Source: Gammaproteobacteria bacterium
GTDB taxonomy: Bacteria; Pseudomonadota; Gammaproteobacteria; Pseudomonadales; Azotimanducaceae
Direction: 5' to 3'
NCBI GenBank assembly: GCA_026706665.1
Contig: JAPOYI010000114.1
Location: 7,268-71,267 of the forward strand
DNA length: 64,000 nucleotides
Shown: one piece after another, positions 26,865-27,086 of the stretch
Layout: every line of letters starts with the position of its first letter
Numbering within the stretch: the first letter of the stretch is position 1
The notes under the pieces: model-generated
What the model was told of the DNA's origin: nothing
Database searches by the model: none
What the model saw: the letters and a program-made list of their open reading frames with translations, nothing else
Made by a program: the position numbers and the translations under genes

Positions 26865-27086
26865 TCAGCGCTGCTGCAGCTCCCCGACGAGCTTGTCTTC
26901 GTCCGGGAAGTCGCCGGTCTCGTGTTTCGAGTAGACCAGCGCACCATCGACGTTCACGTCGAAGATGCCGCCGGCCCCCTCGATCAGGAACGCCTCGTCG
27001 CCGAACGCTTCCTTGATTTTGGCAGCCAAACTGACCGCTTTGGGCTTGTAGCCTCAGGAAGTGCAGTAGGTAATGGAAATGTCCAA
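26865..27086 (-). CDS. SelW/Rdx family selenoprotein with in-frame UGA (Sec) in a CxxU motif
   Basis: ORF 27054..27302 ends in ISITYCTS followed by TGA at 27054..27056. The same frame continues as GYKPKAVSLAAKIKEAFGDEAFLIEGAGGIFDVNVDGALVYSKHETGDFPDEDKLVGELQQR to a stop at 26865. This gives a YCTSUGYK redox motif and a GGxFxV...DG.L.YSK core. The probable start is TTG 27086, 7 nt after GAGGA. A stem-loop lies at 27024..27046, just 3' of the UGA. Confidence 0.75.

What the first reader, a model, noticed from the sequence alone, without database searches (positions are those of the whole stretch)
26865..27086. Hidden SelW/Rdx-like selenoprotein: in-frame UGA inside a CxxU redox motif
The six-frame track stops at TGA 27054..27056 after ...ISITYCTS. 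The same frame continues without a start codon as GYKPKAVSL...IEGAGGIFDVNVDGALVYSKHETGDFPDE... to a stop at 26865. Joined, the sequence reads YCTS-U-GYK. This reproduces the Cys-x-x-Sec-Gly-Tyr-Lys redox centre of SelW-type proteins (human SelW has CGAUGYK), followed by the family's GGxFEV/DG.L.SK core. A stem-loop (AGCC(C)AAA / UUUGGCU, 8-nt loop containing GGU) starts 7 nt after the UGA, the position expected for a bacterial SECIS. Standard gene callers would miss or truncate this gene. It also implies that the organism has the Sec machinery.
Basis: partly seen in the sequence, partly recalled or inferred. Interest (0 to 1): 0.7.

Follow-up and report, generated by a model that had tools for sequence, protein, structure and literature searches.

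The report
SelW-like selenoprotein gene, mis-called as truncated
This is a real 73-codon gene for a small SelW-type redox protein whose in-frame UGA almost certainly encodes selenocysteine; the family is well known in marine bacteria, so the main consequence is that gene callers truncate it.

Summary
Window 27086..26865 (-) is one 73-codon gene: TTG start with a GAGGA Shine-Dalgarno, Cys8-Thr-Ser-UGA11, stop at 26865. With U written as C it matches Pfam Rdx end to end (68.8 bits; 38.1 for the downstream piece alone) and NCBIfam TIGR02174.

In 80 of 80 related genomes (Pseudomonadales, "Ca. Azotimanducaceae", Pseudohongiella MAGs; 63-97 % identity) codon 11 is TGA. The true terminator drifts among TGA, TAG and TAA. 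Both flanks are conserved. One near-identical relative has TGC at that codon.

The real element is a 7-bp hairpin, GCNGUCA-GUY-UGGCN'GC (27038..27022), 15 nt after the UGA. It has an invariant G-U in the loop, frozen synonymous sites and one pair that switched at least 10 times while staying paired.

The window also holds a second selenoprotein gene (UGSC family, 49682..49164) with the same CA[GUU]UG hairpin apex. This supports Sec decoding in the organism. selA/B/C/D are not in the window and could not be checked genome-wide.

Bacterial SelW-like proteins are the most abundant marine selenoprotein family described. This is a new member of a known kind.

The parts
26865..27086 (-). SelW-like (Rdx family) selenoprotein coding sequence, 73 codons including Sec11: MDISITYCTS-U-GYKPKAVSLAAKIKEAFGDEAFLIEGAGGIFDVNVDGALVYSKHETGDFPDEDKLVGELQQR
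   Evidence: sequence. Pfam Rdx 68.8 bits, profile 2-72/74. TIGR02174 60.9 bits against a 34.2 cut-off; 80 orthologous loci collinear from the start codon to about codon 70.
27094..27098 (-). Shine-Dalgarno-like GAGGA, 7 nt before the start codon
   Evidence: An SD-like motif lies at -18..-4 in 58 of 80 relatives.
27084..27086 (-). Start codon TTG
   Evidence: The same position carries ATG in 57, GTG in 12 and TTG in 11 relatives. In 37 of 80 there is no alternative in-frame start upstream. The median open frame upstream is only 15 codons. Upstream sequence is not conserved between clades.
27063..27065 (-). Cys8 codon (TGC), the resolving or partner cysteine of the CxxU motif
   Evidence: Invariant Cys in 81 of 81 sequences. 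It aligns with the first Cys of the CxxC of solved Rdx proteins.
27054..27056 (-). In-frame UGA, inferred selenocysteine codon 11
   Evidence: TGA in 80 of 80 relatives, while the true terminator is TGA 31, TAG 27, TAA 22. A near-identical relative has TGC at this codon. It aligns with the second Cys of CxxC in homologues.
27022..27038 (-). SECIS-type hairpin GCGGUCA-GUU-UGGCUGC: 7-bp stem, 3-nt loop at 27031..27029, starting 15 nt after the UGA; loop G-U at +26/+27 counted from the U of UGA
   Evidence: RNAalifold consensus. 99.6 % of cells paired; the pair at alignment columns 27:39 shows GU/CG/UA/AU/GC/UG, and 0 of 500 shuffles reach the score. At least 10 state changes on the tree. Val18 is GUC in 80/80, Ser19 AGU in 81/81, Leu20 only YUG.
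26865..26867 (-). True stop codon (TGA)
   Evidence: The position and type of the terminator vary among relatives.
49164..49682 (-). Second selenoprotein gene in the window, supporting evidence for the Sec trait: UGSC-family protein of 172 codons, ...ITASGD-U-GSCSTCS..., in-frame UGA at 49406..49404
   Evidence: translation. Pfam UGSC 7.5e-52, profile 2-171/172. NCBIfam NF041046 126.4 bits against a 125 cut-off; homologues carry Cys, or Trp (TGA read under another genetic code), or are truncated at that column.
49376..49390 (-). Hairpin CGUGCA-GUU-UGCAUG, 13 nt after the UGSC gene's UGA; loop G-U at +23/+24
   Evidence: It has the same CA[GUU]UG apex as the SelW hairpin. Only 4 such hairpins exist on both strands of the window, and 2 of them follow the two in-frame UGAs.

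Best explanation
Window 27086..26865 (-) encodes a 73-residue SelW-like thiol/selenol oxidoreductase of the Rdx (SelW/SelT/SelH) family, and codon 11 (UGA) is decoded as selenocysteine.

Proposed mechanism:
1. While the ribosome approaches the UGA, a 17-nt hairpin inside the coding sequence (27038..27022) acts as a minimal bacterial SECIS. It has a 7-bp stem and a GUY loop with an invariant G-U, and it starts 15 nt after the UGA.
2. The hairpin tethers SelB-GTP-Sec-tRNA(Sec), so Sec is inserted instead of termination.
3. The product carries a Cys8-x-x-Sec11 centre that cycles between the selenol/thiol state and a selenenylsulfide.

Shown here: the gene, its family, the conserved UGA, the Sec/Cys pair, the conserved and covarying hairpin, and a second selenoprotein gene with the same hairpin apex.

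Inferred: SelB binding, actual Se incorporation, presence of selABCD, the position of the CxxU centre at the start of the first helix of a thioredoxin-like fold (assumed from the family's solved structures; no model was made), and the redox chemistry. The physiological substrate is unknown for every bacterial member of the family.
For: - **Family.** Pfam Rdx 4.6e-19 across the UGA, against 1.8e-9 for the downstream piece alone. TIGR02174 CXXU_selWTH scores 60.9 bits against a 34.2 cut-off. Solved Rdx structures (2LJK, 2FA8, 2OKA, 2OBK, 2NPB and others) match at 8e-9 to 3e-3. In the three alignments printed (2LJK, 2FA8, 2OKA) the CxxC lies on C8/U11; for 2NPB the aligned ranges put C8/U11 at chain positions 10/13.
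- **Recoding.** Codon 11 is TGA in 80 of 80 species-level genomes at 63-97 % identity. The start codon sits at the same position and M-D-I-S-I-T-Y-C-x-x-U is conserved. The real terminator varies: TGA 31, TAG 27, TAA 22. The start of the alternative 54-aa ORF (codon 20) is CTG in 38 of 80.
- **Sec/Cys pair.** L084 has TGC where L041 has TGA, with 3 differences in 121 nt.
- **UGA is otherwise a stop.** It is the ordinary terminator of 27 of 41 mapped genes.
- **SECIS.** See, as listed under parts.
- **Sec trait.** A UGSC-family gene with an in-frame UGA and the same hairpin apex lies in the window.
- **Literature.** SelW-like CxxU proteins are the most abundant marine bacterial selenoprotein family (PMC1088965, PMC2398784). 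A 5/6-bp apical hairpin a few nt after the UGA is the common minimal SECIS in Fdh, SelD and SelW genes of epsilon-proteobacteria (PMC4607533).
Against: - No selA, selB or selD homologue and no tRNA-Sec lies in the 64-kb window or in the +/-3 kb flanks of the 80 loci. This says little for a genome of roughly 4.5 Mb, but the machinery is unverified.
- The hairpin in the single sequence is not significantly more stable than shuffles (z = -0.96 to -0.45).
- Only one of the seven stem pairs varies, so covariation rests on one pair plus the frozen synonymous sites.
- No Rfam family matches.
- bSECISearch itself was not run.
- The NF041051 equivalog (Campylobacter type) falls below its cut-off (79.3 against 88).
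- There is no expression, proteomic or Se-labelling evidence.
Confidence: 0.93

Rival explanations
1. The UGA is a real stop. The locus is a decayed Cys-type Rdx gene, or encodes only the 54-aa C-terminal piece that gene callers report, and the upstream 10 codons are not translated as part of it.
For: Gene callers report 54-aa products for nearly all relatives. No Sec machinery is seen in the window.
Against: - A nonsense mutation would not be kept as TGA in 80 of 80 genomes while the real terminator drifts among three stop codons.
- The 10 upstream codons, the start codon and the SD are conserved.
- Codon 20, the supposed start of the 54-aa ORF, is CTG in 38 of 80.
- The 54-aa piece lacks the CxxC/U centre that defines the family, and the joined protein scores 68.8 against 38.1 bits.
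Confidence: 0.02
2. The UGA is read through, but not as selenocysteine. Near-cognate or suppressor decoding gives Trp, Cys or Gly, and the hairpin merely stimulates read-through.
For: The Sec machinery is unverified. One database relative (P0061) has Gly at this position. Hairpins downstream of stop codons can stimulate read-through in general (my own knowledge).
Against: - The position is the second redox residue of a CxxC/U motif, where only Cys or Sec is functional in homologues.
- The hairpin has the distance and the loop G-U typical of bacterial SECIS elements (PMC1088965, PMC4607533).
- A second, unrelated gene family known as a selenoprotein (UGSC) has the same arrangement 22 kb away.
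- P0061 is frameshifted right after that region and looks like an assembly error or pseudogene.
- UGA is the commonest ordinary stop in the window.
Confidence: 0.04
3. The conserved hairpin is a by-product of protein-level constraint on the A-V-S-L-A-A helix and has no RNA function. Sec insertion, if any, would use another element.
For: The six residues are invariant at the protein level. Six of the seven pairs never or hardly vary.
Against: - Synonymous sites are frozen only in the hairpin. Val18 is GUC in 80/80 and Ser19 AGU in 81/81, whereas invariant Val44 uses 4 codons and invariant Ser53 uses 4 codons, never AGU.
- The two free third positions (Ala17, Ala21) co-vary, with at least 10 switches and 79 of 81 sequences paired.
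- The same apex occurs after the UGA of the unrelated UGSC gene.
Confidence: 0.02

Closest known systems
Bacterial SelW-like (SELENOW-like) selenoproteins, Pfam PF10262 Rdx / NCBIfam TIGR02174 (Zhang, Fomenko & Gladyshev 2005, PMC1088965; GOS analysis, PMC2398784)
   Same: Small single-domain protein of about 70-75 aa. N-terminal CxxU motif. UGA followed by a small hairpin with a G in the apical loop. Marine bacterial origin. Sec forms outnumber Cys forms. Function uncharacterised.
   Different: Nothing categorical. This clade (Azotimanducaceae, Pseudohongiella and related MAGs) was not among the organisms analysed in those papers. In 2006 FdhA was reported as the only selenoprotein of Pseudomonadales (PMC1794560). 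In the protein database searched here its members appear only as truncated 54-aa products.
Mammalian selenoprotein W (mouse SelW, PDB 2NPB)
   Same: Same Rdx family (E = 4.1e-5, query 3-64 on chain 5-70). From the aligned ranges, C8/U11 fall on positions 10/13 of the mouse protein.
   Different: Eukaryotic SelW uses a 3'-UTR SECIS with SBP2/eEFSec. Here the element lies inside the coding sequence, 15 nt after the UGA (the bacterial SelB mode). The bacterial protein is shorter and lacks the C-terminal extension.
Cys-containing bacterial Rdx proteins (Atu0228 2FA8; 2OKA; 2OBK 'SelT/selW/selH selenoprotein domain') and human MIEN1 (2LJK)
   Same: Homologous over nearly the full length. In the three printed alignments (2LJK, 2FA8, 2OKA) YC-x-x-C aligns with YC-T-S-U.
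   Different: They have Cys instead of Sec and are about 100-117 aa long with extra C-terminal sequence. They have no recoding signal.
E. coli fdhF SECIS (minimal upper stem-loop GGUUGCAGGUCUGCACC, G23/U24 in the loop, bulged U17)
   Same: A short hairpin within the reading frame downstream of the UGA. The apex is closed by C-A...U-G with G-U in the loop (CA-GGUC-UG against CA-GUY-UG). The loop G-U lies at +26/+27 in SelW and +23/+24 in the UGSC gene, against +23/+24 in fdhF (sequence read; the roles of G23/U24/U17 are from my own knowledge).
   Different: No bulged U in the stem. A 3-nt rather than 4-6-nt loop. No long lower stem that includes the UGA. One codon further from the UGA in the SelW gene.
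Epsilon-proteobacterial SelW/SelT/SelH (seleno)protein, NCBIfam NF041051
   Same: Best-scoring NCBIfam model (79.3 bits, profile 1-67/70). A minimal 5/6-bp apical hairpin SECIS is described for these genes (PMC4607533).
   Different: The score is below the equivalog cut-off (88), so this is a related but distinct subfamily.

Membership tests
Rdx family (SelW/SelT/SelH; Pfam PF10262, NCBIfam TIGR02174) | Profile match above the curated cut-off over the whole domain | tested here: met
   PF10262: 68.8 bits (cut-off 22.6), profile 2-72/74. TIGR02174: 60.9 bits (cut-off 34.2), profile 1-73/74.
Rdx family (SelW/SelT/SelH; Pfam PF10262, NCBIfam TIGR02174) | CxxC or CxxU redox motif near the N-terminus, after the first beta-strand | tested here: met
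   Y-C8-T-S-U11. C8 is invariant in 81 of 81 sequences. The motif aligns with the CxxC of 2LJK, 2FA8 and 2OKA in the printed alignments.
Rdx family (SelW/SelT/SelH; Pfam PF10262, NCBIfam TIGR02174) | Thioredoxin-like beta-alpha-beta-beta-beta-alpha fold | not tested
   No structure was predicted. There is only sequence homology to eight solved Rdx structures (E = 8e-9 to 3e-3).
NF041051 SelTWH_Campy equivalog | Score at or above the equivalog cut-off (88 bits) | tested here: not met
   79.3 bits. It is not filed under this equivalog.
Bacterial selenoprotein gene (UGA = Sec) | In-frame UGA conserved in orthologues, with conserved coding sequence on both sides | tested here: met
   TGA in 80 of 80 loci; N- and C-terminal parts conserved; the terminator codon varies.
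Bacterial selenoprotein gene (UGA = Sec) | Cys-containing homologues align Cys with the UGA | tested here: met
   P0001/L084 has TGC against TGA in L041. The CxxC of PDB homologues aligns there too.
Bacterial selenoprotein gene (UGA = Sec) | SECIS: stem-loop shortly downstream of the UGA with a small apical loop containing G (PMC1088965; PMC4607533) | tested here: met
   7-bp hairpin 15 nt after the UGA. Loop GUY with G and U invariant. Covariation and frozen synonymous sites. The bSECISearch program itself was not run.
Bacterial selenoprotein gene (UGA = Sec) | selA, selB, selC (tRNA-Sec) and selD present in the genome | not testable with these tools
   Absent from the 64-kb window and the locus flanks. 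Indirect support comes from the second selenoprotein gene in the window.
Bacterial selenoprotein gene (UGA = Sec) | Selenium actually incorporated at the UGA position | not testable with these tools
   Needs 75Se labelling or mass spectrometry.
E. coli fdhF-type SECIS | G-U in the apical loop at about +23/+24 from the U of UGA | tested here: met
   G-U at +26/+27 in SelW and +23/+24 in the UGSC gene; fdhF sequence read.
E. coli fdhF-type SECIS | Bulged U in the upper stem (U17) and an extended lower stem starting at the UGA | tested here: not met
   The stem is a perfect 7 bp without a bulge. RNAalifold finds no conserved lower stem.

The most novel reading that the evidence does not exclude
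This gammaproteobacterial lineage may use an unusually minimal and rigid SECIS: a 6-7-bp bulge-less stem closed by C-A/U-G around a G-U-Y triloop. It is shared by unrelated selenoprotein genes (SelW-like and UGSC) and is nucleotide-invariant across family-level divergence. That would imply a SelB recognition mode distinct from the E. coli fdhF paradigm, and it would give a simple motif that could find every selenoprotein gene of the lineage.

A weaker variant is that the recurrent adjacency of both selenoprotein genes to family-III CoA-transferases reflects a functional link.
Probability: 0.15. Interest if true: 0.4.

Novelty: new member of a known kind. Interest (0 to 1): 0.25.

Why it matters
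The main consequence is for annotation. In the 5.8-billion-protein collection searched here, this whole clade's gene appears almost only as a 54-aa fragment without its redox centre. The window's UGSC gene is likewise split into two ORFs. Correcting both adds this sponge- and marine-associated Pseudomonadales lineage to the selenium-using bacteria, which matters for trace-element ecology.

The 81-sequence set also gives an unusually clean view of a minimal coding-region SECIS: frozen synonymous sites plus one freely covarying pair. That could serve to train or test bacterial selenoprotein finders, which still miss atypical SECIS elements (PMC12013277).

It does not change what is known about SelW biology. 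The function of bacterial SelW-like proteins remains uncharacterised (PMC13188914).

Tried and rejected
Rejected: 79.5 % paired, three pairs broken in more than 50 % of sequences, no covariation.
- **Single-sequence folding.** Not informative (z = -0.45 and -0.96).
- **Rfam.** No hit at gathering threshold on the window, and none at E <= 10 on either SECIS region.
- **tRNA-Sec.** ARAGORN found none in the window or in L001-L060.
- **Sec machinery.** tblastn with E. coli SelA, SelB and SelD against the window and the 80 loci gave no hits.
- **Source genome.** The exact AhcY protein is not on record.
- **Promoter and terminator scan** of 26700..27600: nothing.
- **Long N-terminal extension** (ATG at 27302, 82 extra codons). 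Rejected: relatives start at the TTG/ATG position, many have in-frame stops just upstream, and the upstream sequence is not conserved.
- **Genome-wide TGA reassignment.** Rejected: TGA terminates 27 of 41 mapped genes.
- **Other in-frame TGA candidates.** The six long-window hits are adjacent genes or antisense shadows. The CxxU/UxxC screen gave one real hit, the UGSC gene.
- **Functional link to CoA-transferases.** Probably coincidence. The window has three CoA_transf_3 hits among roughly 50 genes, and the two adjacent ones are only 34 % identical.
- **Literature on selenium use in this lineage.** None found.
- **Not attempted.** E. coli queries would rank this lineage too low to appear in the output.

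Full report
**1. Observation**

On the minus strand the sequence reads ...GAGGACATTGCG-TTG GAC ATT TCC ATT ACC TAC TGC ACT TCC TGA GGC TAC AAG CCC AAA GCG GTC AGT TTG GCT GCC.... The TGA is at 27056..27054. The same frame runs on to a TGA stop at 26867..26865. The mechanical ORF list splits it into an 82-aa upstream ORF ending in ...ISITYCTS and a 54-aa ORF that starts at the TTG of Leu20.

**2. Family**

- With U written as C, the 73-aa protein matches Pfam Rdx (PF10262) at 4.6e-19 and 68.8 bits over profile positions 2-72 of 74. The 54-aa piece alone gives 38.1 bits, and the long upstream ORF alone matches nothing.
- NCBIfam TIGR02174 (CXXU_selWTH) scores 60.9 bits against a cut-off of 34.2. 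The Campylobacter-type equivalog NF041051 scores 79.3 bits, below its cut-off of 88.
- Eight solved Rdx structures match by sequence, including human MIEN1 (2LJK), Agrobacterium Atu0228 (2FA8), 2OKA, 2OBK and mouse SelW (2NPB). In the three alignments printed, the CxxC lies on C8-x-x-U11.

**3. Comparative evidence for recoding**

A scan of one genome per GTDB species returned 126 relatives, of which the best 80 were kept. All are from Pseudomonadales, 'Candidatus Azotimanducaceae' or Pseudohongiella MAGs, many from sponge or marine metagenomes, at 63-97 % identity. The tblastn alignments run across the UGA (taxonomy). The peptide patterns used for the scan did not include the UGA position.

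- Codon 11 is TGA in 80 of 80 loci.
- The start codon sits at the same position: ATG 57, GTG 12, TTG 11.
- In 37 of 80 loci no alternative in-frame start exists upstream, and the median open frame upstream is 15 codons.
- The true terminator is TGA 31, TAG 27, TAA 22.
- Codon 20, the start of the 54-aa ORF reported by gene callers, is CTG in 38 of 80.
- TGA is the ordinary terminator of 27 of 41 mapped genes in the window, so the code is standard.

**4. Sec/Cys pair**

Nearly all of the 61 database homologues are 54-aa truncations. The only full-length intact one is P0001, a Cys form. Its DNA (L084) reads TGC GGC GCG TGC TCG where its near-identical relative L041 reads TGC GGC GCG TGA TCG. There are 3 differences in 121 nt, and the downstream hairpin is intact in both.

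**5. SECIS**

It is 79.5 % paired, three pairs are broken in more than half of the sequences, and there are no compensatory changes.

RNAalifold, run both in a script and through the tool, finds a single conserved hairpin instead: GCNGUCA-GUY-UGGCN'GC, window 27038..27022, starting 15 nt after the UGA.

- On 74 distinct sequences it is 99.6 % paired. The N:N' pair shows GU 51, CG 9, UA 9, AU 2, GC 1, UG 1 and one mismatch. None of 500 shuffles reaches the covariation score, and all slid registers collapse.
- N and N' are the third positions of the Ala17 and Ala21 codons. On a neighbour-joining tree built without the hairpin columns the pair needs at least 10 state changes, yet 79 of 81 sequences keep a standard pair.
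- The rest of the hairpin is frozen beyond what the protein needs. Val18 is GUC in 80/80, Ser19 is AGU in 81/81 and Leu20 is only YUG. Invariant Val44 and Ser53 each use four codons, and Ser53 never uses AGU.
- The loop G and U are invariant. They lie at +26/+27 from the U of UGA. In E. coli fdhF, whose SECIS I read from the genome (UGACACGGCCCAUCGGUUGCAGGUCUGCACC), the loop G-U is at +23/+24.
- There is no bulged U and no conserved lower stem.

[quoted passage not shown] Single-sequence stability is unremarkable, and Rfam has no matching family.

**6. Does the organism decode Sec?**

No tRNA-Sec and no SelA, SelB or SelD homologue lies in the window or in the +/-3 kb flanks of the relatives. 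For 64 kb of a genome of roughly 4.5 Mb this is uninformative, and I could not scan the remainder.

A screen for redox-motif UGAs did turn up a second selenoprotein gene at 49682..49164 (-), reading ...ITASGD-U-GSCSTCS....

- It matches Pfam UGSC at 7.5e-52 over profile 2-171/172, and the NCBIfam equivalog 'UGSC family (seleno)protein' above its cut-off.
- Full-length homologues have GD-C-GSCS. Two have GD-W-GSCS, meaning TGA was translated as Trp by a gene caller. One is truncated at ...ITASGD.
- Thirteen nt after its UGA sits CGUGCA-GUU-UGCAUG, with the same CA[GUU]UG apex as the SelW hairpin and G-U at +23/+24.
- Only four A[GUN]U-closed hairpins with at least 6 bp exist on both strands of the window. 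Two of them are these.

Two unrelated known selenoprotein families with the same recoding signal in one window is good, though indirect, evidence for the Sec trait.

**7. Context**

The gene is convergent with S-adenosylhomocysteine hydrolase (25403..26764, +). It lies 440 nt downstream of a family-III CoA-transferase on the same strand (27526..28686, -). The CoA-transferase is syntenic in 36 of 80 loci and AhcY in 26 of 80, in both cases the closer clade. No promoter or intrinsic terminator was found by consensus scan.

The UGSC gene also neighbours a family-III CoA-transferase. The window holds three hits to that family, and the two full-length ones are only 34 % identical, so I treat the adjacency as probable coincidence.

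**8. Mechanism**

The gene, its family, the conserved UGA and the hairpin are shown. The following steps are inferred:
1. SelB-GTP-Sec-tRNA(Sec) binds the hairpin as the ribosome reaches the UGA and inserts Sec11.
2. Cys8 and Sec11 form a selenenylsulfide redox couple. In the family's solved structures this motif sits at the start of the first helix of a thioredoxin-like fold; I did not model the fold here.
3. The couple is re-reduced by a thiol system.

The physiological substrate is unknown for all bacterial members (PMC13188914).

**9. Comparison and novelty**

- Bacterial SelW-like CxxU selenoproteins were described in 2005. [quoted passage not shown] UGSC-containing proteins are also among the top families (255 against 21) (PMC1088965, PMC2398784).
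- Curated HMMs exist for both families.
- In 2006 FdhA was the only selenoprotein known in Pseudomonadales (PMC1794560), and I found no paper on selenium use in this lineage.

The finding is therefore a correct detection of a new member of a known kind. Its practical value is for annotation, plus a clean minimal-SECIS data set.

**10. Limits**

- Covariation rests on one variable pair.
- The Sec machinery and Se incorporation are unverified.
- bSECISearch was not run, and no structure was predicted.

Noticed in passing
window 49164..49682 (-); UGA at 49404..49406; hairpin 49376..49390: A second selenoprotein gene, of the UGSC family (...ITASGD-U-GSCSTCS...). The ORF finder splits it into 92-aa and 72-aa ORFs. 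Pfam UGSC gives 7.5e-52 across the UGA, and the NCBIfam equivalog is above its cut-off. Homologues show Cys, Trp (TGA read under another genetic code) or truncation at that column. Its hairpin has the same CA[GUU]UG apex as the SelW gene's.
   Followed up: yes
window 27526..28686 (-), 49870..51090 (+), 55137..55433 (+): Both selenoprotein genes sit next to a family-III CoA-transferase gene; the two are 34 % identical to each other. A third hit is a 98-aa N-terminal fragment (profile 2-74/366) that ends just before a sulfatase gene and is probably a gene remnant. The adjacency may simply reflect how abundant the family is in this genome.
   Followed up: partly
protein P0061 (database relative; no window coordinates): An 88-aa database relative reads MDISITYCTS-G-GYKPKAVSLAAKIKDILGE and then goes out of frame. 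It has Gly instead of Sec/Cys plus a frameshift, which suggests an assembly error or a decaying copy.
   Followed up: no
window 17803..25094 (+): Three consecutive large genes: an SNF2-family helicase (982 aa), a calcineurin-like phosphoesterase (SbcD-like, 389 aa, overlapping stop/start) and a 1057-aa protein with weak SMC_N similarity (SbcC-like). GC at first codon positions is unusually high (0.74-0.79). This may be an SbcCD-type nuclease module coupled to a helicase.
   Followed up: no
window 29848..31080 (+) and 40308..41621 (-): Two AAA_14 + DUF4143 ATPase genes lie about 10 kb apart. They flank a MoxR-like AAA_5 ATPase with a VWA/CoxE partner (31077..33683) and an oligopeptide-type ABC transporter operon (33577..39831).
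   Followed up: no
locus L062 (CAYJPT010000010.1): One of the 80 SelW loci comes from a MAG labelled Desulfovibrionaceae, whereas all the others are Pseudomonadales-type. This points to a mis-binned contig or a horizontal transfer. It carries one of the two A-U variants of the covarying pair.
   Followed up: no
window 5033..6436 (+), 53851..55041 (-), 60347..61732 (+): An RPE65-type carotenoid/lignostilbene oxygenase and two Rieske-type oxygenase alpha subunits (one LigXa-like), among many SBP_bac_5 ABC transporter genes. This is an aromatic- and peptide-scavenging gene repertoire.
   Followed up: no
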